Assembly: GCA_036172245.1 (NCBI GenBank)
Contig: JAYWIR010000076.1
Span: forward strand, 310,001-374,000
Source of the DNA: Raillietiella orientalis
Taxonomy: Eukaryota
Length of the DNA stretch: 64,000 bases
Direction: 5' to 3'
Positions 6,451 to 45,162 of this stretch are shown here, in pieces; position 1 is the stretch's first letter, and the number at the start of each line of letters is the position of its first letter. The notes below the pieces were generated by a model. The model did not search any database, was not told the origin of the DNA, and saw only the letters and a program-made list of their open reading frames with translations. Both the position numbers and the translations under genes were made by a program.

Positions 6451-6649
6451 TGGCCGTGGAGGGTTCTGGCTGCAACGAGGCTGCCAGCTCCTCCGCGGCT
6501 CGCGCAAAGGCTACGTCATCGATGGTGGTGTAGATGACGGACGCCGCCACCGGCTCGCTCTTCTCGCTGTTGACATAGTCAACAGAGGGGTTGTTGTCGG
6601 TAGCGGCGAGTTCTTTTTCGCAGCGGTCGGGAATGCGCTCCACGACAAC
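6451..6649 (-). mobile_element. Element E (D family), middle ORF1 segment between the C and B insertions
   Basis: Encodes VVERIPDRCEKEL...DDVAFARAAEELAASLQPEPST, colinear with D ORF1 (14570-14770). Joins in frame to 19414 across TSD ACGACAAC. Confidence 0.9.
6642..6649 (+). repeat. Target-site duplication ACGACAAC of family C (other copies 17991-17998 and 19414-19421)
   Basis: The identical 8-mer precedes C1, separates C1 from C2, and follows C2. Confidence 0.92.
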
Positions 6650-6657
6650 TGTGGCAC

Positions 6658-6666
6658 GGACGTGTT
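6658..6666 (+). promoter_or_regulatory. Conserved 5' GGACGTGTT motif (DPE-like internal promoter element) in A, B, C1, C2, D and E
   Basis: The same 9-mer lies within ~15 nt of all six 5' junctions although the UTRs otherwise differ between families. The promoter role is inferred. Confidence 0.65.
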
Positions 6667-6736
6667 CTGTGTTGCTCCACGAGCGTGATTCCTTTCCGTC
6701 TTCTTGTGTGTGGTGTGCCCGAGTGCGTCCACTGGG

Positions 6737-8680
6737 ATGTCCACGGAGCCCCTGCAGCAAAACATGGATGTGGAGGCTGCTACTGGCAGTGGAGTCTCTA
6801 CTCCAGATGTCCGGTCCGCCTCTGATTCTTGTGTCTCGCCATCGGCGAGAAGCTTCGCCGCCGTCGTCAAGGCGGCGGCAGCCAGCGGAGCAACGCCCGA
6901 CGAAGCGGAGCTGCAGGCATATGCAGCCCATGGCTACAAGCCTGCGCTCTGCTATCCGGTAAGTGCTGCGATCTCCTACGGGGTCGGAGAAAATCTATGG
7001 GATGAGCTTTTGCGCGTCGGGGTCCGACAGGACGACCTCCTGGCCGTCATGCCGGTTAACGCGCTCGGACACTGGGAGGTGCAATGCAAAGAGGCATCCC
7101 TAGTCCAGCGCCTTCTCCGCACCCCGCGAAATATCCGCGGGAAGGAGGTCGTCCCGTCGGCCATGGACCAGTCGTTCGTGGTCGGATTATCCGCCGTCCA
7201 GGTGGACACGCCCGATCGCGTGCTCGTTGCTGCACTAAGTGCATTCGCCACGGTGCACGCGCTGTGGAGAGCAGAAAATCCGATCAAAAGGACTGCATCT
7301 CTTCACAGCGGACTTGCCATGACGCGTGTCACCATGGCGGATAGGAGGCAAATGCCTCCGCACTTGCAGGTGGGCGATGCGATCGTCCACCTTAAATTTG
7401 CCGGTCAGTGACCGGCTTGCGACATTTGCGGTGCCGAGGACCACCGTCCGTGGACGTGCCCTTCACGCAACTGCCGCTATTGTAAACAGCTCGGCCACTC
7501 CATCAAAGAGTGCGCCAAGCTAAAGAGAAAGCGGCAGGCGAAAAGCCGCCAACAATCGACCCCGTCCGCGCCGAAAAGATTTCCCGTTGTGCCACGGGAG
7601 AAATCGGGCGCGAAGGGCGGGGCATCTTCGAGTAGAGGTCCCGCGAAAAAGGGCGCGGTTGCTTCAGGAAAGCCACCATCCCAGACAACCGCGCAGACGG
7701 GAAAGATGCCACGTCGCTCTGGGGGCAAATCGCCCCCTTCGAAACAGCCTAAGAGTGCGGGCACGCACTCAATCAAGGCTGCTGAACCGTCCGCGTCCGC
7801 TTGCGCGTCCAGCGGAGCACACGGGAAACCGTGCGCGGGTACCCTCGGAGCTGCCTCTGAACGGCAGTTTCCTCCTACGGCGGTGGAGATCACTTCATCC
7901 ACGCCGAAGGCACGGGCAGCGAAGGCTGCAATAGCGCCTCGCGGGACGACGGCAATGACCGCCGTTTCGCCCGCATCGGCTAAGGAGCAGGTGCAGTGCG
8001 TAACGGGGACGGAGCCGTCTCCCGCCGCGAGCGCGAAACGTGATCCGGCATCTCCGGCCAAACAATTGAGGGAGGCGTCGGCCTCCCAGGAGGGCGTCCC
8101 CGACGCGGGTTGGACTCGAGTCTCCAGGACGCCCACAAAGGGGAAGAAGAAGGTTGACCCTTCAATATTCCCCATCCTTAAGGTGGGTGGGAGGCAAAAG
8201 AGAAGCACGCCGAAGAAGGTGCGTACCCAGGTACGCACTACGGCTGCGTGCTCTGTCTCCGTCGCTTCGCGCGAGAGGGCGGCTGCGGAAGCCAAAGCTC
8301 CGGAAGCTGCGTTGGCGACTGCGACGACACCCGCGCGGGCAGGGCAAGCCTCCACCTGCCGAAACAAAAAGAGACTGGCAAAACGCCAGTCTCGCGCCAG
8401 GCACTCGGACTCCGAGGTGGAGTCTGAGTGCAAACAAATGGAGCGCGCATCCCGGGGTAAGTCGGTAGCGCGCCGGGCTTAGGTGCGAAAGCACGAGACT
8501 GTTGCCGGAGGCGGTTCCGGCTCCTGCACGGAGACCGAGGCGATGATCCTCGGCTCCCAGGACTCAGCTGGGCGCGATGTGGCGGCGAACGGGAGCGATT
8601 CCGCTTCCCAATCCCCTCTCCTACCAGCTGACTTCTCGCCGGACGGGGCGAGGAGCACGCCGTCATGTCCGCAGCAGTGA
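6737..8680 (+). pseudogene. Element C1 ORF1, two in-frame stops (7409-7411, 8480-8482)
   Basis: ORFs 6704..7411, 7589..8482 and 8483..8680 are in one frame. Knuckles CDICGAEDHRPWTC and CRYCKQLGHSIKEC follow the first stop. Confidence 0.85.
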
Positions 8681-10394
8681 TGCGTGGACTCGCGTCCGCT
8701 CGTCGCGTCAGCGTGGCCTGTTGGAATGTCAACGGGCTACGTGATGCTGACAAAAGGCGGACGGTAGCCAACGCTTTGCGCGCGTTCGATCTGGTGCTGC
8801 TGCAGGAGATACATAGCATCTCCGTACGGCAGGCATCGGATCTGGAAGAGCGCGCGGGCAGGACGCTACACTGGCGGCAAGGCTCCGCGCACACGTGCGG
8901 AGTCGCGTTCCTCGTCCGAGGCAGGGTGGCGGAGGCGGTGCGGAACGTTTGTTTCGACGAGGAAGGTCGTGTGGGCCAACTTGTCCTCAAGTGGTCCGAA
9001 TCGATCGACCTGGTCGTTACGAACATCTACGCGCCGAGCGGCGGCCGGCATTACGCCCAGCGACTTGCATTCCTGGGTGGCCTGCGCAGCCGCTGGCTCG
9101 CTGACTCCGGCCCTAACGTGGCGCACCTCCTTGCAGGAGACTTCAACGTCCACCTGCTAACAGAGGAGAGATGCCGCTTGAGGGAGAAGCAACTGGTGAG
9201 CGAGGTATGCGCGTACGTGCGCGTGCAAAACTTGCTTGCTGGTGAGCCCGGGATGGAGAGATCGCCAGACCATGCGTTCCTCGATGAACACCTGCTCTCA
9301 CGAGTAGGTCGGAGAGGGCGCCTGCTGTCCGCGATTTCGGATCATCCTAGACTGGAGTTCGAGTTCCTCCCGCCTGGCAAAGGGCCTCCGATGAATGTCT
9401 GGAGGTTGCCGGCCGACTGGCTTAGCAATTCGGAGGCGGCGGAGCATCTCCGCCAACACCTCCGGGGCTTCGCCATCTGTGAACTCGAGGACTGGGACGA
9501 TCTGAAAAGATCTGTCCGCGAGTTCTGCTGCCGGTTGTTCTTGCACCTGCTTCCCCGCGGCTTCGGGGAGGGTGTCGCGAACAGCAGATCCTATCTGCAG
9601 GCGCGTACCTTTTCACGATGCCCGGACGTCCGGCGTCTGGCGGAGTATAAGGCCAGGGCCGAGCGCCAGGTTTAGCAGTCTGGAGCGGCTTGTCTGCTCG
9701 ATGACGCTGGCCAGGAATGCTCGGCTGCAGCCGAAGTACACCGCGTAGTCAAGCGCTACTGCTCCTCTTTGTACGCGGAGGAGCCCACGGAACGCAGTCT
9801 CTCCGAGCTGCTTCTTCCGACGGGCAACCCTGCTATCGACGAGGAGGAACGCGCCAGATTGGGTTGGCCCTTCACGGCGGAAGAAGTATCCTCTGCCATA
9901 GCGGGCCTGAAGAGGCGTAAGGCGCCTGGGGAGGATGGCCTGCCCGCGGAGTTTTTTCAGTGCTTCGCGGCGGAGCTCGTCCCCCTGGTGCTAAGCCTTT
10001 CCTCGCTGATGCGTGAGACGGGAGATGTTCCCGCTTCTTTCCGCTCAGCAAAGGTGCGGCTCCTGCCGAAAGGCGGTCATTTGCGCCACCTCAGCAACTG
10101 GCGTCCGATCACATTGGTGAATTCGGACGTCAAGTTGTTCTCCAGGCTATGGGTCGCGCGCCTGGGAAGAATCGCAGAGTCCTTGGTAAGTCCGGAGCAG
10201 ACGTATGCTGTTCCGGGTCGGTCCATGGACGCGAATCTCTTCTTCGCGCGAACATGGTTTGAGTGTCAGCAGCGCGTGGCGCAGCAGAGCCAGGCAGCCG
10301 AAATCGCCGCTGCCAAAGGAAAGCAGCGGTGTTCAAGGCACGATGGAACGCCGGGAGCCTTAGCGGTCGCCGTCGATCTCTGCAAAGCGTTCGA
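8665..10394 (+). pseudogene. Element C1 ORF2, 5' half (APE + RT up to KAFD)
   Basis: WNVNGL, LQEIH, GDFN, SDH, KAPGEDGLPAEF, WRPITLVNSDVKLF, AVDLCKAFD; stop at 9673-9675. Confidence 0.92.
10383..10394 (+). repeat. 12-bp TSD of element D: CAAAGCGTTCGA (partner CAAGGCGTTCGA at 15925-15936)
   Basis: Removing D and one TSD restores VDLCKAFDSVNQDLLLELLERLGLP in C1 ORF2. Confidence 0.92.
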
Positions 10395-10613
10395 TTTTCA
10401 CCCGGATTTCGCCGGGGCGTTAATTGTAAAATAAACATTTACAAAGACGTGCGGTGGCTGGACCATTGCTCCAGCCACGCACGAAGAAACACAGAGCCTG
10501 CCGGGTCACCAGTTCGCAGACCGGTACGGTCCACCACGGCAGCAGGGGGAAGGGGGAAAAAACAAAAAACAAAACAAAAAAGAAAAGAAAAGTTGGGAGG
10601 GTAAGGGAAGGGA

Positions 10614-13600
10614 TCACAGTTGCTGGTGGGGCCGTTGCATCCTTTGCAGGATGCCAACAAGCTCCTTCTGTATTCCTGGATCCAGGTGGGGCCATCGGGA
10701 CGCCCTCCTCAGGAACTGGGAGGCTGGCTGGATGGCACCCTGGTCGCGTTGTCCTCCCGTAGCCTTGCTCCAAGCGGTGACGATCTTGCGTAGGCAGCAC
10801 AAAGCTGCTAACGAGGCCGCTGGCCGAAGGGCGTCGGCAACGAAGAGGGCTTTCAGTGCGTCCCTGGGGTTGCCGCAAGGGATTCCGATGGCCGCGGCAA
10901 AGCGACACCAAAGGGGCCGAAGGGCAACACAATCCACTAGCAGGTGGGGGAGGGACTGCCGTTCCCCACACCTGACGCAATTGGGGTCCACAGATCCCCA
11001 GGTCCAGTGGTGTCGGCGGGCGTTGCAGGGGAGTCCCCAGTGCTGCAACAGGAGAGCCGACTCCTGCCATTTTAAGGGGAGGGCGGAAGTGTTCATGAGC
11101 ACCAAGGGCCACTTCAGATGTTCAATGGGAACATCGAGCAGCGCGCCCCAGCGCAGAAGTTTATTGGGAGGCGTAGTCGGGGTCGCAGCGTCTGTTAACT
11201 GGCCCGTCTTCCACTCTCCTATCTTCTTCTCCTTTCCGGAGATTGTTACTGTAACCACCCACTTCGCCGCAACATCGCTGTCCAGATCTTCCATCAGGGA
11301 GGGCAGCGCAGCAGCGAGGGGAGTTCTTCCTGCCCACGCTCTCTTCTTTGGATCCTCCAGGATCTCGCGGAGCGTGCAACTTCTGTAACCCCCAAACAGG
11401 AACCCTCGTTCCTGTTGGGAGCGTTGCATGCCGAACTGTCCCCACGTTCGAACGGTTTCCTGCAACCAGGCACTACCGTTAAACGGGCGACAGGTGAGCA
11501 ATCCTGGGTTTTTCCGATACAGCGCAGCCACCCTCCGTAGCTGGAGTCCGCATCGGTTGAAGCGGCGACGGAGTCCAAGAAACGACGTCAGTCCCGTCTT
11601 GCCGGTGGCTTCTTGGAGAATGAGACGTGCAAGGACGCACCAACAGGTGCACCACAACTCTGGAACGAGTGCCGACAAGCGGAACTGGAGCTGAAGCTCC
11701 AGCCGCTATAGCGTCAGAGGCCCAGACCACTATCCCGACGAGGAGCGCACAAGTCCTTTAAGCGGACTCGGGCCCTCCCGTTGCCCCAAAGGCCGATACG
11801 TAGGAGGTCCTTTGTCCGCTTTTTAATCCTCTCTGTGGGGGGGCAAACAAAAAGCAGGGGGCAGAGGAGAGGAGCCGCGAACGTGTTCCAAACCGCGGCC
11901 CGTTCAGGCAGGAAAAACCTGCCGCCTCGGAACGGGCCGATTGCCGTCTCTACTTTTTGAAGGCAGCCGGATCACGCTTCCGCAGGGGAGTAGTCCCCCA
12001 ACGGAACACCAAGGTACTTGAAGTACCTCACCGTGGGGATCCCCAAACGGACCCAGTCCTGCTGCCCTGCCCACGCCGCACCAGCTGAAATCACGGACGA
12101 CTTCGCCCTGTTCACCGTAAGTCCGGTTCCCCGATGCAGCAGGTCGAAGAACTCCTCGACCGCCGCAGCCGGGGTGGACATAGGGAGCAGCAGCAGAAGG
12201 TCGTCCGCGTATGCTGAAACGGCCGGCGTACCGGCACAGTCGTGCGGCAGGTGCGCCAGAGTTCCCCTGTGCGCTCTCAGTACCAACTCAAAGTAGGTAC
12301 TGAAGAGCAAGGGGCTCAGGCTGTCTCCTTGCCGGATTCCACGCCGCACCGGCACGCCGTGCACGGTCTGCCCGCTGAAAGTAACATTGATGAGCGTGTC
12401 GCGCCAGCAGGAGCGCAGATAGGCCACTAATGAAGCTGGGAAGCCCAAGCGTTCCAGAAGCTCCAGAAGGAGATTCTGGTCGACGCAATCGAATGCTTTC
12501 CGCAAGTCGATTGCGACCGCAAGGGCTCTCTCCCCCACCCGACCATCCAACCCCCTACCTGCGCACGAACCGGAATTCCGGCTGCGCACCAAACTCCTTT
12601 CATGTTGGAGCTCTAGCCAGGTGGAAGCGTGGAACAGGTTCGCCTCCATGCTTCGCCCGGGAACAGGATATGTCTGTTCCGGGCTGATGAAGATGTTGGC
12701 AACCCGTCCCAGACGCTCTGCCCACATCTTGGCTATCAACCTGGCGTCCGCATTCACTATTGTGATGGGACGCCAGTTGTTCATGCTCCTCAGATCTCCT
12801 CCCTTACGGAGGAGCCGCAACTTTGCCGAAAGAAACGAGGCGGGAACGTCACCTGTTTTGCGTATCAGCAAGGTGAGTTGCTGTACCATGGAGGTAAGCT
12901 CAGCCGCGAAAGTTTGATAAAACTCCGCGGGCAGGTTGTCCTCCCCTGGAGCCTTTCGCCTCTTGAGCTTTCCGATGGCCGATAGGATCTCGTCCATCGT
13001 GAAAGGCTCGTCGAGGGTCTTTCTCTGCTCCTCCCCGATCGCTGGAGCGCCTTCCGGAAGCAGGAGTCGTGAGACGTTCCTCTTTGGAGGTGCCCTGGCA
13101 TACACGGAGGAGTAGTAACTCCGCAGCAGGCCGCGGATTTGGACAGGTGCCGAGTGCTCCTGGCCCTGATCGTCCAGTAAGCTGGCCGATCCGGACTACC
13201 AGGCTTGCCTCTCGGCTCCCGCTTTGTATTCCGCCAGCCTGCGGATGTCGGGGGTCCTGGCGTAACGACATGCCTGCAGGTAGGCTCGTTCGTTACGGAC
13301 CCCGGTCCCAAAACCCGTAGGTAGGCGGTGCAGAGGGAACTGATCGCAGAACTCCTGCACTGACCCCTTGAAGCGGTCCCAATCCTGGAGTGTCCGCAGC
13401 CTGAAGCTCCGTATGAACGTGCGGAGATGTTTTGCCGCGTCCGGGAGCTTTAGCCAGTCCCCTGGAAGACGCCACGCTGACGAGGGGGGGCCCTTGTCGT
13501 GCGGATGGATCTCGAGGACTAGCGGGCGATGGTGGGACAGCTCGCACGGTAACTTGCCGCGCCTGCCCACGCGAGGGCACAGGTGCTCGTCAAGAAACAC

Positions 13601-14194
13601 GTGGTCAATGCTGTCTTCCATCCCCGGTGCACTGGCCAACAGATTACAGGTGTGCACCGCCATGCACACCTAGTTGACCAGGTCACGCTCGGGATTCTGC
13701 TCATCTGGTTTCAGGCGAACGTTGAAATCGCCTGCCACCAGATGGGCATTCCGCACGCCTGCTTCGGTCAGCCAGTCTCGCCGGAGGGCAAAGAAAAACT
13801 GTTTCCTCGCCCTCCTGTTCATCAGGTCCTTGCCGCTCGGTGCGTACACGTTCGTGACGATCAGATCGATCGAGTCGGACCACCTGAGAGTCAGCTGGCC
13901 GACACGACCGTGATCATCGAACCGCACGCCCCGAGCCGCGGCCTCGACGGCTGGCCGAAGCAGGTAGGCGACACCGCAACTTTTCGCTCTCCCACACCTG
14001 TACCATAGCCGCCCTCCGGAGATCCGTTCGATCTCTTACGCTTGTTCTGCAGAGATCACGTGGATCTCCTGCAGCAGCGCAAGGTCGTAGGACTCCAGAA
14101 GAGCGGCCATGTCTCGTCTCCTGCCGGCGTCTGTCATGCCGTTCACGTTCCAAACGGCGATGCGCAGACGACGGCGGGAGGAAATTCCCGGCAT
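10614..14194 (-). pseudogene. Element D ORF2 (APE-RT-C-terminal zinc motif), several nonsense codons and a frameshift
   Basis: ORF pieces 13670..13927, 13196..13669, 11972..13105 (IDLRKAFD, GIRQGDSLSPLLF, YADD, FKYLG) and 10614..11678 (CVRCGERQSLPHLLVDC). Confidence 0.92.
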
Positions 14195-14208
14195 TACTGC
14201 TGGGAAGA

Positions 14209-15828
14209 TTAAGGTGTGGGGGAGCCCTCCTCTTGCGAGGCGGGCGGGATGTCCATGGGGGTTTCGGCCTTCTCAGGCACCTGAGGCACCTGTCCGGCCC
14301 TCACCCCCTCCATCCCCTCGGTGTACGTGCGTGGGAGTCTCTCGGGCGACGGGTCCCGAGAGTTTCCCACGCTCATGGCACCCTCGCTTGCGGAAGCCAT
14401 CTCTTCCCCTTCGACGGGGGAGACGAGCTTCCTTGGCTTTGTGGAATTACGTCCAGCCTTCTTGCGCGGTGCCGTGGAAACGGAGGCTGCGCTTCCGGCC
14501 TCCACCTCGGGGTCGGAAGTGGGGGATTCCTGAGGGGAGGCCGAACGCCTGACGGCCTTCTTGCCAGCCTTGGAGGGTTCTGTCTGCAACGAGGCTGCCA
14601 GCTCCTCCGGGGCTCGCGCGAAGGCTACGTCATCGATGGTGGTGTCGATGACGGACGCCGCCGCCGGCTCGCTCCCCTCGCTGCTGACAGTGTCAACAGA
14701 GGGGAGGTCGTCGGTAGCGGTGAGTTCTTTCCGGCAGCGTTCGGCAACATCGAGAACGCGTTCGACAACGACGCTGCACTCTTTAATAATCGCGCTACCC
14801 TGCTCTTTCTTCTTCTGTTGGTAGGCGATTTTCTTTTCCATCATCCTCTCCTTCTTTGATTTTTTGGCCGTTGCCACTTGCCACTTAGTCTCCTGACCGG
14901 CTCCCTCAACTTTTTCGGCGTTGGTCGCCGAGGTCTCGGAAGCGGCCTGGGTCTTGGGCGCGGGTGGCACAGCCTTCGCGGCAGCTTTCGCCGCCAGCCT
15001 TTTCTGCAGAAGCCGGGCGCGTTTTTTAAGGTTTCTCTTGGAAACCACCCGCACTGCTGCTTTTGGGCACACCTCCCTCGTGTGGCCCATTGTGCCGCAT
15101 ACTTGGCACTGCACATTGGGACACCTCTTTTTGAGGTGGCCCGACGTATTGCAGAAACCACAGTATTTCGGCTTCCCCACATACCAAAGGTCGACGGTTT
15201 CGCCTTCGACCACCAGTTTGTGGAGAAGAGTGCAGCCCTCCCGAACGGTCACGCGCGCAGCAGTGAGGCCGTGTTGCAGCCCCGTGTAGTCCTCGAAAGG
15301 ACTTACTTTCGTCCACTGCGCGTGGACCGTTCCGAACTGTTCCAAAACGGCGCGAACCTGTTCTTTGCGCATCCGCGCGGTGACGCCTAACAGGTGGACC
15401 ACCATGCTGCGGTCCGCCGTAGTGGGGAGGAGCCTGCGCGTCCCCATCACAGCGGGGGTTTTAAGCAGTCGTTGGGCCAGCTCTGCATGTTTGCAGATGA
15501 CCTCAACGTACTGACCCCCGCTGCGGATGGTCATAGCGCTGAGCTCCTCCTCTTTCACATCAAGAGCGCGCATGCCCTTCGAGAAGGCGCGCGCGCTCTC
15601 TAAAGAATAGAAATTGCCTACCTTGTAGAACAATGAGGGGTTGTACCCCACCTCTACATAGGATAACAATTCCGCCGCGGCTGCAGGCGATGGCGCCGAC
15701 ACAACGGCGCTCCACGCCCGCGCTGCAGCGGGGACCGATTCTATGGGGGCGGATGCCCCCACCTCCATCGCCTCTGAGGGCGACGTTACCGCTGCCCCCT
15801 GGCCATCCCTGCGGGTCGCGTCAGGCAT
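14209..15828 (-). CDS. Element D ORF1, intact, 539 aa Gag-like zinc-knuckle protein
   Basis: MPDATRRD start at 15828; CGFCNTSGHLKKRC and CQVCGTMGHTREVC; open to 14209. Confidence 0.88.
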   Translation of the reverse strand: MPDATRRDGQGAAVTSPSEAMEVGASAPIESVPAAARAWSAVVSAPSPAAAAELLSYVEVGYNPSLFYKVGNFYSLESARAFSKGMRALDVKEEELSAMTIRSGGQYVEVICKHAELAQRLLKTPAVMGTRRLLPTTADRSMVVHLLGVTARMRKEQVRAVLEQFGTVHAQWTKVSPFEDYTGLQHGLTAARVTVREGCTLLHKLVVEGETVDLWYVGKPKYCGFCNTSGHLKKRCPNVQCQVCGTMGHTREVCPKAAVRVVSKRNLKKRARLLQKRLAAKAAAKAVPPAPKTQAASETSATNAEKVEGAGQETKWQVATAKKSKKERMMEKKIAYQQKKKEQGSAIIKECSVVVERVLDVAERCRKELTATDDLPSVDTVSSEGSEPAAASVIDTTIDDVAFARAPEELAASLQTEPSKAGKKAVRRSASPQESPTSDPEVEAGSAASVSTAPRKKAGRNSTKPRKLVSPVEGEEMASASEGAMSVGNSRDPSPERLPRTYTEGMEGVRAGQVPQVPEKAETPMDIPPASQEEGSPTP

Positions 15829-15924
15829 CGCTGCCTGATCGACCACCGAACCACACGACGCTTGCACTGGGGAAGACTTCCTGTCACGAGGAGCACCGAG
15901 AAAACACGTCCACCCTGGAGCGCA

Positions 15925-17785
15925 CAAGGCGTTCGACAGCGTAAACCAGGACCTCCTTCTGGAGCTTCTGGAACGCCTAGGCCTCCCGACGCACCTCATC
16001 GCCTACTTGCGCTCCTGCTGGCGCCACGCGTTATGCTGTATCTCTTTCAGCGGGCGTCACGTGTACGGTGTTCCCATACGGCGGGGTATCAGGCAGGGAG
16101 ACAGCTTAAGCCCCCTGCTCTTCAGCATCTTCTTTGAGTTGGTGCTGAGGGCGTACAGGCTGACGCTGGCAAACCTGTCGAGCTCCTGCCCGGGAACACC
16201 GGCCGTGGCTGCCTATGCTGACGACCTTCTCCTGCTGCTGCCCATGTCCACCCCGGCATCCAGGCTCGAGGACTTCTTCGAGCTCATTCGTCGGGGAGCG
16301 GGCCTGAGCGTGAACAGGACGAAATCAACCGTTGTACCGGTTGGCTTTACGTGGGAGGGGCAGTCCGACTGGATCCGCCTGGGGATCCCCACGGGCAGGT
16401 GCTTGAAGTACCTCGGCGTTCCCTTGGGCGCCTTCTGTCCAGCAAAAGCGTGGTCGGATTGCCTTCACAAGACCGAGACTGCTCTGGGCCCGTTCGAAGG
16501 CGGCAGGTTTCTCCTGTCGGAACGGGCCTTCGTGTGGAACATTTTCGTTACCCCCCTCCTCCGTCCCCTCTTTTTTGTTTGTCCACCTCCCTACTCGGCT
16601 AAGCGCCGGGCGCAACGCCTGTTGCGTATCGCCCTGTGGGGACCGGCGAGGTCCAGGATACGCCTGAAGGACTTGGCGGCTCCTCGGCGGGATGCAGGAT
16701 TGGGCATCCTGACGCTGGAGCGGATCGGACTGCTAGTGCAGTTCCTCATGCTGGCACTTTGTGCCCAGCTCTATACTACTCCCTGGTGTGCTCCAGCGCG
16801 GCTGCTGCTGCGGCGCTGCACGGATGGCGACGGACTGCGTTCGTTGCATTTGCGCACGGAGCGCGTTTTAAAAGGATCCGGCTTCCCTCTGAAGCAGCTT
16901 GCTTCGGTTCTGGAAAAGCATTGGTGGATCTCCTGCCGGCCGACGAACTTCAACGCCTGGAGGCAGGAAGCCTTATCGTCCTGGGCAGCGCAACAGGATG
17001 TGTCCCGTTTGGAACTCCGTTGCGTGAAACTTTCCCCATACTGTCCAGTGGGGGAGGTGCTGGAAGACCAGGACCAGTGGACACGCCTAGCCGCTACGCC
17101 ACTCGCCGGAGCACTGTGTGCACTGATGGTGCGAGATGACAGTGACCTGCCGGCGAGGTGGGAGATCACTTGCGAAATCGCATGCGAAACCCGACTGCTG
17201 GGCGGCTGGCGGACTTGCGAAGTGGCAGACGCTTCCACACCCCGCATTCTTGCAAAGGGGCTTCTCCGGTGGAGTGAGCTCCTCGGGGTGCCCACCGATG
17301 AACTTGTGGTCCCTTCTGCGTGTTTGGACGCGACTCTCTTCCCCCTTCGGTGGAAGCAGGACGCTTTTCTGCTGGTGCATTGGGGTTTGTACTGCAACCA
17401 GCGGGCGCACCTGATTTCCGGGGGAGTTGCGTCCCCGAACTGTGCCAAATTGGGAGCGGTGGAAACGCTTCCGCATTTGCTGTTTGAGTGCGGTGCCCTC
17501 CAGGAGCTGTGGCAGCGGCTGTCTTTAGCGCTCCTGCACCCTGGACACACCGCACTGGATTGGATGCGCCGCTTCTACACGCGTGGCGGACTTTCTCTTG
17601 GAGCGGTCGTCGCAATCATCTGCTGCGTCCGCGCCATTGTCAGGGCCCGCCACGTATTGCAGATGCGAGCAGTCCCAACATCGGTCCCCGACACCGCAGC
17701 CTGCAACCTGCAAATGGCTGCCGGCCGGCCACACCTGGGAGCAGAAGTGAGGACGGAGATCGGCGGCATTCATTGCCGGTTCTGA
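15925..17785 (+). pseudogene. Element C1 ORF2, 3' half (RT from KAFD to C-terminus), open frame
   Basis: KAFDSVNQ, GIRQGDSLSPLLF, YADD, LKYLG, ETLPHLLFEC, ending EIGGIHCRF*. Confidence 0.92.
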
Positions 17786-17960
17786 GAATAGGAACGGTTA
17801 GACAGTATACCCCTGTCCCCGCCCTCCCACCCAGTTTATTTATTTATTGTCCCACCCCCTCCCGTTCCGAACTCTCAGTGTGCCCGGACTGCGTTCCGGG
17901 AAATCTACTCCCCATTTTCTCTTCCCCTTGCCTGGGAACACAGTTCTCAGTTGATATTTT

Positions 17961-17990
17961 AATAAACGTCCCGGCGCAACCGGGTAATAA
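17961..17990 (+). terminator. Conserved 3'-terminal AATAAA + CCCGG-loop-CCGGG hairpin + short A-rich tail (also in D, C2, F, H)
   Basis: C1 AATAAACGT-CCCGG-CGCAA-CCGGG-TAATAA; F AATAAACGC-CCCGGG-CGTA-CCCGGG-TGTAA; D (minus) AATTAACGC-CCCGG-CGAAAT-CCGGG-TGAAAA. Confidence 0.8.
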
Positions 17991-17998
17991 ACGACAAC

Positions 17999-19413
17999 TG
18001 CCGCACGGACGTGTTATGTGTTGCTCCTCAAGCGTGATTCCTTTCGGTCTTTTTGTGTGTAGTGTGCCCGAATGCGTCCACTGGGATGTCCACGGAGCCC
18101 CTGCAGCAAAAGATGGATGTGGAGGCTGCTACTGGCAGTGGGGACTCTTCTCCAGATGTCCGGTCCGCCTCTGATTCTTGTGTCTCGCCACCGGCGAGAT
18201 TCGCCGCCGTCGTCAAGGCGGCGGCAGCCAACGGAGCACCGCCCGACGAAGCGGAGCTGCAGGCATATGCAGCCCATGGCTACAAGCCTGCGCTCTGCTA
18301 TCCGGTAAGTGCTGCGATCTCCTACGGGGTCGGAGAAAATCTATGGGATGAGCTTTTGCGCGTCGGGGTCCGACAGGACGACCTCCTGGCCGTCATGCCG
18401 GTTAACGCGCTCGGACACTGGGAGGTGCACTGCAAGGAGGCATCCCTAGTCCAGCGCCTTCTCCGAACCCCGCTAAATATCTGGAAGACCAGGACCAGTG
18501 GACACGCCTAGCCGCTACGCCACTCGCCGAAGCAATGTGTGCACTGATGGTGCGAGATGACAGTGACCTGCCGGCGAGGTGGGAGTTCACCTGCGAAATT
18601 GCAGGCGAAACCCGACTGCTGGGCGGCTGGCGGACTTGCGAAGTGGCAGACGCTGCCACACCTCGCATTCTTGCAAAGGGGCTTCTCCGGTGGAGTGAGC
18701 TCCTCGGGGTGCCCACCGATGAACTTGTGGTCCCTTCTGCGTGTTTGGACACGACTCTCTTCCCCCTTCGGTGGAAGCAGGACGCTTTTCTGCTGGTGCA
18801 TTGGGGTTTGTACTGCAACCAGCGGGCGCACCTGATTTCCGGGGAAGTTGCTTCCCCCTAACTGTGCCCAATGCGGAGCGTTGAAATCGCTTCCGCATTT
18901 GCTGTTTGAGTGCGGTGCCTTCCAGGATCTGTGGCGGCGGATGTCTTCAGCGCTCCTGCACCCCGGACACACCGCACTCGATTGGATGCGCCGCTTCTAC
19001 ACGCGTGGCGGTCTTTCTCTTGGAGCGGTCGTCGCAATCATCTGCTGCGTCCGCGCCATTGTCAGGGCCCGCCACGTATTGCAGATGCGAGCAGTCCCAA
19101 CATCGGTCCCCGACACCGCAGCCTGCAACCTGCAAATGGCGGCCGGCCGGCCACACTTGGGAGCAGAAGTGAGGACGGAGATCGGCGGCATTCACCGCCG
19201 TTTCTGAGAACAGGAACGGTTAGACTGTATACCCCTATCCCCGCCCTCCCACCCAATTCATTTATTTATTGTCCCACCCCCTCCCGTTCCGAACTCTCAG
19301 TGTGCCCGGCCTGCGTTCCGGGAAATCTACTCCCCATTTTCTCTTCCCCTTGCCTGGGAACACAGTTTCCAGTTGATATTATGAACAAACGTCCCAACGC
19401 AACCGGGTAATAA
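17999..19413 (+). mobile_element. Element C2, internally deleted 1.4-kb copy of family C, tandem to C1
   Basis: 17999-18480 matches C1 6650-~7134; 18481-19413 matches C1 ~17060-17990. Both termini and TSDs are kept. Confidence 0.93.
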
Positions 19414-20611
19414 ACGACAACGCTGCATTCCTTAATTTGCTCGCTTGCCTGCTGTTTTTTCTGGCGGTACGCGAGCTTTTTCTCTAATCTTCTTTCTTTT
19501 TTTGTTTTTTTGGCTGTTGCCACCTACCACCCAGGCTCTTGGCTAGTTCTCTCGACTTGTTCGGCGTTGTTCGCCTGGGTCTCGGGTGAGGCCTCAGCTT
19601 TAAGCGCGGGTGGCACAGACTTCGCGGCAGCTTTCGCCGCCAGCCTTTTCTGCAGAAGCCGGGCGCGTTTTTTAAGGTTTCTCTTGGGAACCACCCGCAC
19701 TGCTGCTTTAGGGCACACCTCCCTCGTGTGTCCCATTGTGCCGCATACTTGGCACTGCACATTGGGACACCTCTTTTTGAGGTGGCCCGACGTATTGCAG
19801 AAGCCACAGTATTTCGGCTTCCCCACATACCAGAGATCGACGGTTTCGCCTTCGACCACCAGTTTCTGGGAAAGAGTGCAGCCCTCCAGAACGGTCACGC
19901 GCGCAGCCGTGAGGCCGTGCTGCAGCCCTGTGTAGTCCTTGAAAGGACTAACTTTCGTCCACTGCGCGTGGACTGTTCCGAACTGTTCCAGAGCGGAGCG
20001 AACCTGTTCTTTGCGCATTCGCGCGGTTACGCCTAACAGGTGGACCACCATGCTGCGGTCCGCCGTAGTGGGGAGAAGCCTGCGCGTCCCCATCACAACG
20101 GGGGTTTTAAGCAGTCGTTGGGCCAGCTCTGCATGTTTGCAGATGACCTCAACGTACTGACCCCCGCTGCGGATGGTCATAGCGCTGAGCTCCTCCTCTT
20201 TCACATCAAGAGCGCGCATGCCCTTCGAAAAGGCGCGCGAGCTCACTAAAGAATACAGATTGCCTACCTTGTAGAACAATGAGGGGTTGTACCCCTCCTC
20301 TACATAGGCCGACAACTCCGCCACGGCTGCAGGCGATGGCGCCGACACAACGGCGCTCCACGCCCGCGCTGCACCGGGGACCGATTCTGAGGGGGCGGAT
20401 GCCTCCACCTCCATCGCCTCTGGGGGCGACGTTGCCGCCCCCCCTGGCTCTCCATCGCCTCTGGGGGCGCCGTTGCCCCTGCCCCCTGACCATCCCTGGT
20501 GGTCGCGTCAGGCATCGCTGCCTGATCGACCACCCAACCACATGACGCAAGCACTGGGAGAGACTTCCTGGCACAAGGAGCACCGAGAAAACACGTCCGC
20601 CCTGGAGCAGG
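19414..20611 (-). mobile_element. Element E (D family), 5' end and ORF1 N-terminal part
   Basis: Roughly 95% identical by eye to D over the knuckle region. ATG at 20515; short tandem duplication ~20409-20485; GGACGTGTT at 20590-20598 (minus). Confidence 0.93.
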
Positions 20612-22711
20612 CAAGGCGTTCGACTGTGTTCACCAGGAGCATCTGTTGGAGCTCCTAAGTCGCATGGGCTTCTCACCCTCCTTGATCACTTACCTGCGTT
20701 CTTGCTGGCGTAATGCGATTATCTGCATCTTTTTCAGCAGTCAGAAGGTGTATGGCGTGCCGGTGCGGCGGGGCATCAGCCAGGGCGATAGCCTGAGTCC
20801 CCTGCTCTTAAGTACCTACTTTGAGTTGGTGCTGAGAGCGTACAGGGTGACTTTGGCCCCTTTGCCGAGCTCGTGCCCCGGCACGCCCGCTGTAGCAGCC
20901 TATGCCGACGACCTTCTGCTCCTCTTACCTATGTCCACCCCGGCGAAGGCGTTCGGAGACTTCTTCGATCTGCTCAGCCGTGGGACAGGACTGCAGATCA
21001 ACAGGGCGAAGTCGTCGGTGCTGCCAGTAGGTGCGGCGTGGGCAGGGCACTGGGTCCGTCTGGGGATCCTCACGGCGAGGTACCTCAAGTACTCGGTGTG
21101 CCGTTGGGGGACTACTTTCCTGCGGAAGCGTGGTCCAGGTGCCTGCAAAAAGTCTAGACGGCGATCGGCCCGTTCCTGGAAGGCAATTTTCACTTGCCGG
21201 GACGGGCCGCGGTTTGGAACGCCTTTGCGGCACCCATCCTCCGCCCCTTGCTTTTTGTTTGCCCCGCCTTAGGAGTTGTTAAAAAGAGGACGAAGGTTCT
21301 CCTCCTCATCGCCCTTTGGGGCAAGGGGAGGCCCCGAGTCCCTCTGAAGGACTTGTGCGCTCCGCGTCGGGACGGCGGTCTTGGACTCCTGACGCTGGAG
21401 TGCGTGGAAATCCAGCTGCGATGGCGAACCCTCGCCATCGCAGCGAAGATGTGGAGCACCCCTTGGTGCGTTCCGGCCCGCCTCCTTGCCAGGCGTGAGT
21501 CCCGATGCGAAGGACTCGCGTCGTTTCTTCTGTGCCCTGGCCGGAAGATTCGAAGATGCGGCCTTATGCTCGGACGAATAGCAACCCTGGCGAAGGTGAC
21601 CGGTTGGGTGGTTTGCTGCCCCGCCAACTCCTCTGCCTGGCTGGAGGAGACTGCAGGCACCTGGGCCAAGCAGAACCGGAGAAGAGAAGAGAATATAAAC
21701 TGCCTGCGAATCGGCCCATACGCCAACCGCACTCTGCGGGAAATACTGGAATTTCCCCGGAGTCTCAGGTGGGCGTTGTCGACTCCCCTTGCTACGGCGA
21801 TGCCCTACCTCCTGAGGGCGCTTCAGGATCGCCAGAAGCCGAGGTGGCAAGTCACTTGCCAGATCGCAGGCAGGGAGAAGATGTTAAGTGGCTGGACCAC
21901 AGGAGAACTGGCGGACGCCACGACCCCGAGCGTCCAGCCGCGTGGATTGATGAGATGGGGCGAGCTGCTCGCTATCCCTACCGATGTGCTGAATTGGCCC
22001 CCGGTACTCAAGGAATCCAGGATCCTGCCCCTTAAGTGGCAAGAGTCGGCGTTGCTACTGCTTCACTGGGGTTTACCCTGCAACGCACGCCGCTTCCACT
22101 GGACAAGGGGATCTGTGGATCCTGAATGTGTCAGGTGCGGAGAGCGGGAATCGCTCTCCCACCTTATTGTGGACTGTGCTGCCCTCCGACCCCTCTGGGA
22201 ACGGTTCGGGACAACCCTCGGGCTCCCTACGGGCAGCACCCCCAGAGACGTTCTTCGGCCCCTCTTCGTGAAGGACGCACTGCAGCCAGCCGCAGCCATC
22301 GCAGCCTTGTGCTGTGTCCGTGGCATCGTGGCGGCATGGAGCGACGCCAACTACGGAGGAGTGGGTCCACACGCGAGGGATGTCATCCCATATGCCCAAC
22401 GGTTCTTGCGGAGAGCTGCCGGGTGGCCCCAACTGGGGAATATGCGGATGGACCTCGAAGGTTTCCTTCAACGGATGGGCCCTCCTCACAGCGAGTAGTG
22501 ATCCCTTCCCTGCCCTTCAACTTCTTTTTGTTTGTTTATTTTTTATTTTTCTCTTTGTTTTACCGCCATCCCTTTTCTTTGATATGGAACGCTACGCCGG
22601 GCTGCGTCCCGGCGTCCCGGCAGGTCCCGTGCGTATGGCCGTTAGCGGGGTCTTGTACTGCGTATGCAGGGTATTTTTAAAATAAACGCCCCGGGCGTAC
22701 CCGGGTGTAAA
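20612..22711 (+). mobile_element. L1/Tx1-clade element F, 3' half (RT from KAFD, C-terminus, 3' UTR); probably B family
   Basis: Starts KAFDCVHQEHLLELL, has YADD and CVRCGERESLSHLIVDC, stop at 22498, AATAAA + hairpin 22681-22705. Family assignment is inferred from the target site shared with B. Confidence 0.9.
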
Positions 22712-39146: not shown

Positions 39147-41915
39147 TTAGTTGTATTTTCTTGAGAAATATGATGAATATAAATCTCCCGCGACCATAGG
39201 ATTTCTAGTTGGGAAGCGCATGATGCGATTTGCTTGACAACTTGTTTGGGAGAGTAAGCGGAGAACACCATCATTTAGTGGATCCCAAGCACCAAGAGTA
39301 CCGACAGCAATTGCATCATTGAGAACTTGGAGGCCTTGAGATTCCAGAAAATGCCGTAGGGGACGATATTTGTTTTGTTTAATTTCTCTCGCCAATTTGA
39401 AAGGCTTCTCACGATTTTCATAGGTGACTACCAGGTCAAGAATTAAGGCGTGGGGTTGGTCTCGATGAAAAATGTCAGGGCGAAGGGTGGAATGGGAATC
39501 AGGAATGCAACAATCACTGGAAGAAATGGACCAGAGAGGAAGTAGAGTTTCTCTAAATAAATCCAATGTGCGGTTGTGTCTATAGTGGATCGTAGTGCCA
39601 AGATGAGCAGGAGAATGAGAGAGAGCATGCACTAAAGTCTGTTTTAAGTAATGACATTCACGGCAATGTTCCATAAAGCCTTGTCTTTTTCGGTTACCAT
39701 CAAGTACTCATTGATTAATCTGGCCACGGTGAATAAACCGCTAGTCAGCGAAGCGGAGAAAAAATCCATCCTCATCGAAGCTGGGTGTCGTGCAACGCAA
39801 TCTATGGATCTAGGTCGATCAGACTTAGAAAGTAAAGACACAATCTTCTGATCTCGAAGGAGGAAGCGAATTGATTTCGCCATATGTCTGCGGTATGAGG
39901 AAAACAGATTCTTGGAGTTTTCTGGGTTATCAATAGCAAGTCCTAGGACAGTTTGTCCTTGAACAAGATCCCATTGAGTGGGCAAAAATTTGACAAGAGA
40001 GCAACAGCGTGACCAGAATGTTTTAGGATGTCCACTCCGTTTGTCAAGGGGAGGGAAGGTGGAACCGTTTAAGAACCTACAGACAATGGAGGTCAGAGGA
40101 ACAATGTGATTTTCCTCTAACAGCATCCATAAGGGTTTGAAGGGCGAGAAAGGAGATGGTACTTTAGGGACAACAAAGGAGTTTGAGGGCCGAGTCAATT
40201 GACATAATGCGAGTTTCTTCGGAAAGAGCCACAATTCCAAGACAGCCATCTTTAACACGTCCATACATATTCGGTGGACGAGGCTTCAGTGAGGGAGAGG
40301 ATGTGTTGTTTCAGAGCATCTCGAATCATTTTGTCGAATTTGGGCCATTCTTGGAAGGGTTTTGTACCTAAGCGAAGGTCATGGACATGGGAAGGAAGAA
40401 GGAACGTGTTTAAAGCGTGGAACTTCTGCCATGGAGCAATTTGCGAATGAATAATAATTTTGAATTTGTCAGCAAAACCGGAGATATCTCCGTTGTAGAA
40501 AAAGGGTCAAAGCCAACAGATTTACCTGTGAGTATTTGTAATTTTCATGATGGTATCGCTTCTCCGTATATAATGAAAGGGGAGGGGATGACTTGCGGGG
40601 GGGAAGTAACCAAGTGAAAAGACCTACACAGTCTTTGGGTTAACTTGAAGACCAAGTGAAGAAGCAGAGTTGTTGAGGAATGTTACTGCAAGTTGAAGGT
40701 CTTGAAGCACACTAGAAGTAAGGGCAACATCGTCTGCGTACATAAGGGGCATTACATTGGAAAAGGATTGTATCATTAATTGAATAACGGGTTCCAGAGA
40801 CATTTCAAATAAAAGACCGCTATGTGGAGATCCTTGCTTAACACCAGTTCGGATGTAGATAGGATCCAAGAGTTCCCCTAATGCACAAATTTGTGTGAAG
40901 GACTAATCATAAAGGTTTCTGATAATGGCAAGAAATTCCTCACCTATACCAAAATGAGGTAAGGAGAAAGAGATGAGGGCATGAGGAAGGGAAGAAAGGT
41001 TATCCATAAAGTGCAACCAGCGAATGCAGAGGTTTTCATGGTGTACTCTGGCACGCTGTAGTTGTGAAGCGAGCAAGAAATTCTGCTGAAGCACACCCTC
41101 CTATGGAAGAAACCCTTTATGTTCTGGACCTAAGATCGAAGGGGCGTAGGCACAGCAATGTTTTCGGGTGAATCCACGCTCTCGGGTTCACTTTCATCTT
41201 CCAGCAGGGCGTAACGGGAGCCATTAGCTAGAGAAGATTGTTCACGACTCCTGGCCAGTAATTTTTTGCGAGCCTGGCTCCTGTCGAGTGGGCAGGGGTG
41301 AGCAGTTTGTATTAAGGCGTTAATTTGTGGGCGCCTTCGGCGGTTTCGTACTGTCTCCCACCAATGTTAAAGGGGCGGTTCAGGTGGCTGGAATTCATGC
41401 CGAACCGTCAGAGTCGCTTGCACGGTGTCCCGTCAAGGTCGCTGATCGTGTCTCCGTTCCGGAGGGCGGGGACGCGTTCGATTCCGCTGGGGTGTATGGG
41501 GTCGCCGTTGACCTCATATTTCAAGAAGAATATTCCAGAAGGCTCAACGAGCGAGCTCGTCATGCCATCGAATGTGATTAGCAAGCGCTTTTTTATTCAA
41601 AAAACATTGTCCGCAGTTTTGTTCCGGACACCGAGGAGGTGCTGGTGCTGCCCGGGGAAAGGGCTGAGGGCCACAGCGATGGTGCCAGACCGGAATCGAT
41701 AAGGTAGCCTTACACCTTCGACAAATGAGGTAGGTGCCACGTACCGGGATGTGGTGCGCTATCCGGGATGTCGGCGTACGAAAATAGGATGCGTTTCGCT
41801 TCCACTGCGGAGGATTGCCATCAGCATCGGGGTAGTGGGCATGGCATTGTCCTGGGAGTCGGAAGGAGGACGAGGAAGACGTCCTCTTCCGTGAGCACGG
41901 CTGTTGGCCTGTCAT
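39147..41915 (-). mobile_element. Decayed RLE-type non-LTR retrotransposon (NeSL/Utopia-like), tail-to-tail with the previous one
   Basis: N-terminal C2H2 finger CPEQNCGQCFLNKKALANHIRWH; RT GVKQGSPHSGLLF...MYADD; RLE domain CREC...RHN...RPDI...LDLVVTYEN...KQNKY...VGTLGAW. Confidence 0.88.
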
Positions 41916-43495: not shown

Positions 43496-45162
43496 AAGCA
43501 CCGGAAACGACGGAGAGACTGCTGGAGCGGGGAGGCTGCTCTCAGGAAAGGGGAAAAGCGAAGAGGAGGGGGCATAGGAGTGGGGCTGGGGAGCGCGGAG
43601 AGAAAAGAGAAAAACAAAGTGCTCCATCTGTCCGGTCCGCCTGCGGGGAGGCAACCGTCATCGCTGCATTCGGAGATGCAAGTGCACGACGGACCTTGGC
43701 GGAGTCGCGATTTATCCGGGAAACTAGCGCGCGTGCACGTGTACCCAGGGCGAGTGCGCCGCTCTCGAACCGTGAAAGCGCAAATCCGGATGAAAAGGAG
43801 GAGGCGACGGGCAGCGAAAGCAAGGAGGGCGTTTCAGACCGGGCTTTAACACCACTTGGTGGTGCCCCGCTAGTTCGAGATCACCTCGGGGCAATAGAAT
43901 CCGTGGGGAAAGCAGAGTGGGGGATGCGGAAGAAGCCTGCAGCAAGAAGGGTTGAGCGAAAGCGCGGCAGCGGCTGGACGCCGGTCTTGTGGGAAGGCTG
44001 CGCACGCTAACTGGCTCGTACGCGGTAGCTAATGCTGCTGCGCTGGTCTGCTTCACCCTTGAAGCCTGTTCCCGCCCTCGTCCGCGCACTTTGCGAAGGG
44101 AGCGGATGCAACGCGGTCACACGGTACAGCTTACCGCCGCGTGCTGCAGAAGGAGCCACATAGCTCCGGGACAAACACAACTGTCCGCGAGGATCCGAAG
44201 ACCGGGCTCGAGCCCTCGGTCTTCGGATCGTGCGCGCTCGACCGCACGTCCGCTCTTTCCGTCACGAGCCGCGAGCTACGGACTACGAGCGGTCGTACGT
44301 AAGAGCGGGCGGACCTGCTTGCTGCGGACTTGTCCTTGCTGCAAGAAGGACCGGCAATGAAGAGTCCAGGAAGAAAGGATGCTTTCCCAAACTCAGTAAT
44401 CGCAAGTAGGACTCATAGGCATTTCGAATGCCGCATACGCGTGCAGCATCAGACGGTTTGGAAACGTGCCTACGCATTACGGATGTGTTTCTGTACTTCC
44501 TCTTGCACTTCTTCTTTTCTTTTTTGTGGCAATTGCTTGTCCTTTTTTCGCTGCTTTCAAATTCGCCACAGAAAGATGGCAAAGCATCCAGACATTACGT
44601 TCTTGTGCCTTTGGCAAATGATCTTTTAACGGGCTCTCGTGGCTCAAATTCTACGCTCAATCCTTTTGCATTCCCTTCTGTTTCTCTCTCTTTTTTCCCT
44701 TGTTTCCATCGCTGAAATCCTCTGAAATCTTTGTCTTTCCTTATCGGTTCAGTTTCGACGTTCAAGCTCTCCTACTGTGACCTCGTGAAAGTGAGACGTT
44801 CGCGTCTTGCGAAGAGTAACGCAGGACAGCAACGCTCCTGATCACCCCCACACCCTGACTTTGCGATCCCATTCCTCCGTGCTAGTCGTTTGCGATCGTC
44901 GCAATTCGTTCCCGCAGAGGGATCGCATGCGTATCCGGTAAACTCAGCGCCGATGGGACAAACTACTAGGTCGTGCGCTTGAATCTCCGAATGCAGCGAT
45001 GGCAGCAGCCTTCCCGCAGGCGGACCGGACAGACGGAGCACTTTGTTTTTCTCTTTACTCTCCGCGCTCCTCAGCCCCATTCCTTTGCAGCTTCCTCTTC
45101 TTCTTTCCCTTTTTCGGGGAGCAGCCTCCCCGCCCCAGCAGCCTCTCAGTGTTTCAGTGCTT
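43496..45162. repeat. ~195-bp imperfect inverted repeat pair (43496-43690 and 44970-45162)
   Basis: GAGAAAAACAAAGTGCTCC[A/G]TCTGTCCGGTCCGCCTGCGGG and flanks occur on opposite strands, roughly 80-85% identical by eye. Confidence 0.85.

What the first reader, a model, noticed from the sequence alone, without database searches (positions are those of the whole stretch)
14740..14960. Possible escape from targeting: the younger D copy is synonymously recoded over the C target site
D sits inside C1, so it post-dates the C insertion into E. Over IKECSVVVER the protein is identical, but 6 of 10 codons differ (D aaa gag tgc agc gtc gtt gtc gaa; E aag gaa tgc agc gtt gtc gtg gag), removing ACGACAAC. 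This lies in a ~220-bp divergent tract, whereas the knuckle region of D and E is about 95% identical by eye. A tract swap or selection conferring immunity would point to an arms race between families.
Basis: inference. Interest (0 to 1): 0.7.

Follow-up and report, generated by a model that had tools for sequence, protein, structure and literature searches.

The report
Retrotransposon variant resisting a rival's insertion
One jumping-gene family here comes in two versions that differ only in a short stretch around the spot where a second jumping-gene family lands. The second family has broken most copies of one version and almost none of the other, now commoner, version, which looks like one parasite escaping another.

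Summary
D and E are one L1/Tx1-like LINE family with two haplotypes. All 38 diagnostic differences lie in 14691-14952, around the target of family C; elsewhere net divergence is about 0.

Genome-wide, C fills 25 of 41 E-type sites but 3 of 91 D-type sites (p=4e-13), and 0 of 74 with D's own 8-mer (two exceptions outside that set). Age, location and general protection do not explain this: the gap holds in every age bin, and two other inserting families hit D and E equally.

D was not recoded from E. The tracts split long ago (synonymous divergence 0.69 in the core, with amino-acid changes and indels) and are shuffled by recombination. One synonymous G>A separates the near-resistant young D form from the partly susceptible older D form.

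Resistance is shown statistically. That escape drove D's rise is inferred (~0.6); other mosaic blocks lie off target sites. The scan found the mutual-targeting network before in this genome; my look-ups returned no note of this allele-specific resistance.

The parts
10395..15928 (-). Element D, a full-length L1/Tx1-like LINE (ORF1 with knuckle-like Cys/His motifs, then ORF2 with APE region, RT and zf-RVT, broken by stops), inserted antisense in C1's RT
14209..15828 (-). D ORF1, open
14691..14952 (.). Dimorphic tract: all 38 D-versus-E diagnostic sites; densest part 14731-14836
14765..14778 (+). Homologue of the C target in D: ACAACGAC followed by GCTGCA. 14767 (A; G in E and older D) and 14770 (G; A in E) are the only D/E differences in these 14 bases. 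Empty.
6453..6649 (-). Left (3') piece of E ORF1, ending in the left duplication ACGACAAC at 6642-6649
19414..20615 (-). Right duplication ACGACAAC (19414-19421), then the 5' half of E ORF1 and E's head, which sits in the RT K-A-F-D codons of element F
6650..10394 (+). C1, 5' part (head, ORF1, APE, start of RT)
15929..17990 (+). C1, 3' part (rest of RT and tail)
17999..19413 (+). C2, an internally deleted tandem C copy (head 17999-18480 joined to the 3' end), separated from C1 by ACGACAAC at 17991-17998
14567..14572 (.). Target of family B in D/E ORF1 (empty in window D; filled in window E at 6452). Control site.
14031..14040 (.). Target of a further family ('X', tail ending CGGGTGAGAA) in the D/E endonuclease region. 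Control site, empty here.
15334..15430 (.). Second, weaker mosaic haplotype block, found in both D and E types, with no recurrent insertion site

Best explanation
Family C is a sequence-specific LINE that inserts antisense into the Ser-Val-Val codons of the D/E family's ORF1, at ACGAC(A/G)AC followed by GCTGCA, and so breaks the copy (shown as a pattern). The D/E family carries two anciently diverged versions of the ~260 bp around this site on one shared, recombining backbone (shown). C fills E-type sites often, older D-type sites (third base G) sometimes, and young D-type sites (third base A) almost never (shown). The likely cause is a mismatch in the sequence that C's endonuclease, or its priming and 5'-joining steps, must read: the G>A at base 3 plus the diverged flanks (inferred). 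About 60% of E copies but about 3% of D copies are hit, so D source copies survive better, and the young D form replaced E while C was active (replacement shown; selection as its cause inferred). The immunity came from an old tract kept or imported by recombination plus one synonymous CpG-type change, not from six steps of recoding.
For: Occupancy is 3 of 91 D vs 25 of 41 E among the 134 sites of two exact 15-mer anchors (2 further sites are of neither type), p=3.6e-13. After collapsing 6 near-identical pairs, p=5e-13. Within D: G at base 3, 3 of 16; A, 0 of 74; p=0.005. D with G vs E, p=0.007. By private-mutation age bin, young-D is 0/27, 0/26, 0/16, 0/4 against E 3/5, 4/6, 5/11, 5/10. An exposure model expects 7.5-21.9 hits in young-D and finds 2 of 56, P<=0.005 in all 8 settings. 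Controls: family B hits 18 of 92 D vs 4 of 22 E, and family X 14 of 67 vs 2 of 11, both p=1. Young-D sites lie no farther from C copies than E sites do (22 of 74 vs 3 of 15 empty E within 100 kb). Recombinants: E next to the site with D farther away, 6 of 8 filled; the reverse, 0 of 5. From the C side, 59 of 84 C 3' ends lie on typed D/E-family sites: 41 E, 9 D (2 with A at base 3), 9 other. An unsupervised scan of 158 copies peaks on the site (net divergence 0.16-0.19 at 14700-14849; next highest elsewhere 0.068). Young-D versus E counts go from 3:10 in the oldest bin to 13:1 in the youngest.
Against: No biochemical test was done. Two C insertions lie on D-type sites with A at base 3, one in a true young-D background. 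Other mosaic blocks lie away from known targets: 15334-15430 and 15019-15094, and a single-copy ~200-bp patch in ORF2. The B and X targets, each hit in about 20% of copies, show no dimorphism, so target site does not imply dimorphism. The tract changes the protein (pN 0.10-0.15, two indels), so selection on ORF1p is open. The D tract is slightly more uniform than its backbone (0.029 vs 0.035) and its age correlates only weakly with backbone age (rho 0.29, n=81), which leaves room for some late conversion. Sites were found through exact 15-mer anchors and D/E-like queries, so a third deep haplotype or heavily decayed copies would be under-counted. Ages are rough (700-900 bp each).
Confidence: 0.6

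Rival explanations
1. By-product. D is truly refractory to C, but the two tracts persist and D rose for other reasons: selection on the lysine-rich ORF1p segment, or chance turnover of source copies in a family that swaps tracts all the time.
For: The family is mosaic elsewhere. The tract carries 19.5 non-synonymous differences and two indels. Both tract types occur on old backbones 14-20% from modern copies, so they pre-date the last C wave. Mouse L1 families exchange the ORF1 coiled-coil segment with no rival inserter invoked in the passages read (PMC3600994). The B and X targets are not dimorphic. With several target sites in 2.6 kb, a 260-bp tract could cover one by chance (my estimate, 10-35%).
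Against: The deepest block peaks on the most heavily hit site. The change that marks the young, expanded D form is synonymous and falls inside the 8-mer. A 61% versus 3% loss rate is a large survival difference whatever made the tract.
Confidence: 0.3
2. Artefact of timing, sampling or gene conversion: young D copies arose after C went quiet, or D tracts were written over empty E sites, so they are empty by construction.
For: Young-D is younger than E (median 0.023 vs 0.035) and than most C insertions (median 0.032). The D tract is slightly more uniform than its core. The first D query spanned the site and was biased to empty copies; it was not used for the counts.
Against: The youngest E copies are still filled (3 of 5, 4 of 6) where young-D is 0 of 27 and 0 of 26. 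Among hosts older than the youngest quarter of C insertions, 0 of 33 vs 13 of 26. C end branches reach about 0.01. D tract divergence is 83% of core divergence and correlates with it (p=0.008), which does not fit recent wholesale conversion.
Confidence: 0.07
3. One reading: D arose from an E-like ancestor by targeted synonymous recoding of the C site, as one move in a two-way C-versus-D arms race.
For: Synonymous differences are dense in the core tract (pS 0.69 vs pN 0.15). An older C group sits mostly in ancestral-type 8-mers (9 of 11) and a younger clade mostly in E-type (41 of 47), clustered beyond shuffles.
Against: D's tract is nearer than E's to most of the older copies compared, and ACGACGAC is the inferred ancestral state. 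pS much greater than pN is what long divergence under purifying selection gives. The C tree pattern is confounded with age and uses only the last 1 kb. D/E rarely inserts in C (4 of 114). No C lineage specialised on D was seen.
Confidence: 0.03

Closest known systems
Target-specific Tx1-clade LINEs that insert into other transposons: Tx1 in Tx1D (piggyBac type), Tx1-Mar in Mariner-N4_AMi, Tx1-9_AMi in Harbinger, Tx1-8_Crp and Tx1-4_AMi in LTR elements (PMC4494074, passages read)
   Same: APE plus RT LINE with a fixed site inside another mobile element, a short duplication, tandem copies sharing one duplication, and in part antisense orientation. C meets that paper's criterion of more than 20% of flanks (59 of 84).
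   Different: The targets here are conserved coding motifs of sister LINE families, several families target the same host family, and the target family has a resistant haplotype. The passages read mention no target-side resistance.
Zepp and ZeppL L1 elements of green algae (PMC8226300, passages read)
   Same: L1-type elements that build clusters by inserting into existing copies.
   Different: Described as self-nesting of one family. Here insertion is across families, at fixed codons, and depends on the allele.
Recombinant mouse L1 families, with transfer of the ORF1 coiled-coil segment (PMC3600994, passages read)
   Same: A short ORF1 segment from an older lineage on a modern backbone.
   Different: Here both versions coexist at high copy number and the segment overlaps another element's target.
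R1 elements of Drosophila 28S rDNA (PMC2718515, passages read)
   Same: APE-type site specificity (recalled), tandem arrays at the duplication, and transcripts that carry flanking target sequence, proposed to anneal to the target. One C junction hints at this (L243).
   Different: The rDNA target is held fixed by host selection; a transposon ORF can change or swap its target tract.
Cleavage-resistant alleles at homing-endonuclease and gene-drive targets (search listing only; concept otherwise recalled)
   Same: Function-preserving changes in a conserved coding target block an invading element.
   Different: Here both players are retrotransposons in one genome, and there is no homing between alleles.

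Membership tests
L1/Tx1-type non-LTR retrotransposon | ORF2 with APE endonuclease, RT and C-terminal zinc-binding region | tested here: met
   PF03372 in C1; PF00078 in C1 and D; weak PF13966 in D and F, below the curated cut-off. D's APE was read from the translation and from similarity to sister elements; it was not scanned.
L1/Tx1-type non-LTR retrotransposon | ORF1 with zinc knuckles | tested here: inconclusive
   Weak PF00098 in C1 (E=5e-4, just under the cut-off), none in D. Cys/His knuckle-like spacing is visible in D, E and B.
L1/Tx1-type non-LTR retrotransposon | No LTRs; short target duplication; 5'-truncated or deleted copies | tested here: met
   8-bp duplications for C and D; no terminal repeats in the self-comparison; truncated C copies.
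Tx1 clade in the strict sense | RT phylogeny groups with named Tx1 elements | not tested
   Best hits are fish proteins at about 30% identity with RT/APE/zf-RVT domains, none labelled Tx1. No tree with named references was built.
Target-specific LINE | More than 20% of copies flanked by one target (criterion of PMC4494074) | tested here: met
   C: 59 of 84 3' ends on typed D/E-family sites. D/E: 139 of 169 heads on a K-A-F-D-like RT junction by a loose motif test.
Target-specific LINE | The endonuclease itself cleaves the target specifically | not testable with these tools
   Needs a cleavage assay.
Selected escape (resistance) allele | Lower insertion rate in the allele at equal exposure | tested here: met
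Selected escape (resistance) allele | Rise of the allele caused by the parasite | tested here: inconclusive
   Replacement of E by young-D over time is seen; its cause cannot be separated from drift or protein selection in one genome.
Two-way arms race | Counter-adaptation of C to the resistant allele, and reciprocal harm | tested here: not met
   No D-specialised C clade among 59 copies, 3' kilobase only. D/E in C in 4 of 114 heads.

The most novel reading that the evidence does not exclude
A host-parasite cycle between retrotransposons is recorded in one genome. An older C lineage hit the ancestral site, a younger C lineage hit the E form, and then the D/E family escaped through a recombined tract plus one synonymous base. 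Target-site escape would then be a force that shapes LINE subfamily turnover.
Probability: 0.3. Interest if true: 0.88.

Novelty: new variant of a known kind. Interest (0 to 1): 0.72.

Why it matters
Target-specific LINEs are usually read as living in harmless, fixed sites. Here the target is a living transposon gene, and a natural pair of susceptible and resistant alleles with 134 scored sites gives a measurable strength of selection between transposons. It also gives a one-base prediction for what an APE-type endonuclease reads, and it makes the idea that transposons compete by inserting into one another directly testable. My literature searches (open-access library only, listings read) returned no report of allele-specific resistance of one LINE to another. 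Subscription papers and supplements were not seen.

Tried and rejected
(1) The first D search spanned the site and could only return empty copies. It was replaced by one-sided queries and exact anchors.

(2) The pattern happened to exclude empty D sites. It therefore only shows that one D-left anchor is followed by a C head (1 of 3 matches); it gives no denominator.

(3) The idea that base 3 of the 3' junction is copied from C RNA, which would hide the allele: off-target ends show varied bases there and A occurs at on-target ends, so it is at least often target-derived. It could not be excluded for each site. The left junctions of the three filled older-D sites were non-collinear or not found.

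(4) Use of the 3-nt-shifted near-match in D: 0 of 24 junctions.

(5) Spatial separation of D from C: rejected.

(6) A recurrent insertion site in the second mosaic block or in the right flank: none among 20 breaks in 183 copies.

(7) D/E differentiation in ORF2: none, in 11 D and up to 7 E copies per window out of 19 fetched stretches plus the window copy.

(8) Distance-to-majority ages were inflated by mosaic blocks, so ages were recomputed from rare alleles, with the same result.

(9) No Pfam match in 17 ORFs of 30-63 kb; no sizeable tandem repeats.

(10) Look-ups in earlier scan notes by words and by the tract sequence returned nothing.

Rows dropped: one mis-anchored row (L186), restored; copies without enough core sequence have no age (5 of 125); 7 of 66 C copies were left out of the tree.

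Full report
Setting. Bases 1-23,300 of the window are a nest of related non-LTR retrotransposons with APE, RT and zf-RVT regions. The nearest database proteins are fish LINE proteins at about 30% identity. The window lies on contig C76 of a 210-Mb assembly. E's ORF1 (minus strand) is split by two tandem C copies, each bounded by ACGACAAC at 6642, 17991 and 19414. D (10395-15928, minus) sits in C1's RT K-A-F-D codons with the duplication GCGTTCGA.

Observation. The protein is identical over IKECSVVVER and 6 of 10 codons differ between the two window copies. Against most E copies the count is 5 of 10. Identity falls to 70-74% over 14762-14961, against 91-100% over 14962-15761.

D and E are two haplotypes of one family. 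All 38 sites that separate D from E lie in 14691-14952 (56 D and 57 E copies). Net divergence is 0.16-0.19 at 14700-14849. It is at most 0.011 across the rest of 13300-15899 and at most 0.005 across ORF2 in a smaller sample. The groups were defined by the tract, so I also ran an unsupervised scan of 158 copies. It peaks on the target site; the next block, at 15300-15399, reaches 0.068 and occurs in both types. In the core tract, synonymous divergence is 0.69 and non-synonymous 0.15, and there are two in-frame indels. That is old divergence under purifying selection, not fresh recoding. Recombinants with a switch between 14836 and 14872 occur in both directions. A D and an E copy 2.7% apart in the backbone are 24% apart in the proximal tract. 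Of 13 older copies, 7 are clearly closer to D in the tract, 3 to E and 3 are near-equal. Most of the oldest copies carry ACGACGAC and are C-filled. I infer that this is the ancestral 8-mer, from which E (base 6) and young D (base 3) each differ by one CpG-type G>A.

C occupancy by allele. Two exact 15-mer anchors on the right flank gave 92 and 42 sites, with 0 control matches. By the haplotype next to the site, 3 of 91 D and 25 of 41 E sites carry a C 3' end; 2 sites are of neither type. p=3.6e-13, and the result is unchanged after collapsing 6 near-identical pairs. Within D, sites with G at base 3 are filled in 3 of 16 and sites with A in 0 of 74 (p=0.005). Older D is itself below E (p=0.007), so both the base and the context matter. 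From C's side, 59 of 84 3' ends lie on typed D/E-family sites, 41 of them E and 9 D. Base 3 is G in 63 of 67 filled sites, while base 6 tolerates A (50) and G (16). Immunity is not complete. L157 (older-D background) and L119/L243 (young-D background, full-length C, both flanks collinear) have A at base 3.

Confounders. Age: young-D is younger than E, but by rare-allele ages it is empty in every bin (0/27, 0/26, 0/16, 0/4) while E is filled in 3/5, 4/6, 5/11 and 5/10. An exposure model expects 7.5-21.9 of 56 insertions in young-D and finds 2. C was still inserting at about 0.01-0.02. General protection: family B (site 14567-72) and family X (site 14031) hit D and E alike, 18 of 92 vs 4 of 22 and 14 of 67 vs 2 of 11. 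E could be scored there only where C is absent, and B is younger than C. Place: young-D sites are as near to C copies as E sites are. Recombinants follow the half next to the site, 6 of 8 vs 0 of 5. Late gene conversion is not fully excluded.

Mechanism. Shown as a pattern: C is sequence-specific for about 14 bases and avoids the young-D version. Inferred: the mismatch lowers nicking or priming. One junction (L243) has E-like bases at 14758, 14761 and base 6 in an otherwise D-type host. This would fit C transcripts carrying upstream target sequence, as proposed for R1 (PMC2718515, passages); two of the three bases could also be CpG decay, so it is only a hint. Also inferred: the 61% versus 3% loss gave D an advantage. 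Young-D to E counts run 3:10, 13:13, 31:6, 13:2 and 13:1 from oldest to youngest bin (7 E-anchor sites are not in this count).

Against an arms race. D/E inserts at the K-A-F-D motif of many sister families (139 of 169 heads by a loose test) and in C in only 4 of 114 classified heads. The C tree has an older group mostly in base-6-G sites (9 of 11) and a younger clade mostly in E-type sites (41 of 47), with 9 label changes against 14 in shuffles. This is confounded with age, the bootstrap had not settled, and no D-adapted clade appears. Mosaic patches occur off target, and the B and X sites are not dimorphic.

Comparison. The closest known cases are Tx1-clade LINEs that target other transposons (PMC4494074, passages), Zepp self-nesting (PMC8226300, passages) and ORF1 segment exchange in mouse L1 (PMC3600994, passages). 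Strict Tx1 membership was not tested. The scan had already noted the cross-targeting network in this genome, and had judged two other synonymous-escape claims unproven. Seven literature searches (listings only) showed no report of allele-specific resistance between LINEs; supplements and subscription papers were not seen.

Verdict. The feature is real. Resistance of the D haplotype is well supported (my estimate about 0.9). Selection for escape as a cause of its spread is about 0.6, and a full cyclic arms race about 0.3. New variant of a known kind; interest 0.72.

Noticed in passing
window 14567-14572 and 6452; many loci: Family B is very young (0.008-0.03 from its majority) and inserts in the same orientation as its host, about 200 bp from the C site. 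Several contigs end about 540 bp into these B copies, perhaps at an unassembled repeat.
   Followed up: partly
L243 (C33:380591), left junction: A full-length C in a young-D host has E-like bases in the last 15 nt of its left flank, a hint that C RNA carries upstream target sequence.
   Followed up: partly
C heads genome-wide; D and E heads 15905-15928 and 20590-20615: The outermost 4-7 bases of C heads resemble the target bases that follow the duplication (GCTGCA, GGTGCA and variants), and D heads likewise resemble the RT target. The families here share a GGACGTG(T) motif just inside the head.
   Followed up: no
L104, at D coordinate 15725: A C head sits at a second ACGACGAC-like site in an old copy's ORF1, which suggests that C reads sequence rather than position.
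   Followed up: no
L093 and L174: C also inserts in the matching Val-Val-Val-Glu-Arg codons of a family only 71% identical to D.
   Followed up: partly
window 15334-15430 and 15019-15094: Two further linked-variant blocks in D/E ORF1, largely synonymous, with no recurrent insertion site.
   Followed up: partly
L257, at D coordinates 13100-13300: A single copy carries an internal ~200-bp patch 22-24% diverged from the family.
   Followed up: no
L080, L091 (14412); L251, L261 (12733-12752): Further recurrent insertion sites in D/E, each seen twice.
   Followed up: no
window 9673-9675 and 13196-13198: C1 and D each have an in-frame stop at neighbouring codons of the APE-RT linker, where element A reads through; probably independent nonsense changes.
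   Followed up: no
window 40207-41051 vs 62649-63493; 39295-39544 vs 63497-63745; 43496-43690 vs 44970-45162: An 845-bp direct repeat (97.8%), a weaker adjoining one, and a 195-bp inverted repeat in the lower-GC part of the window. No Pfam match in 17 ORFs there.
   Followed up: no
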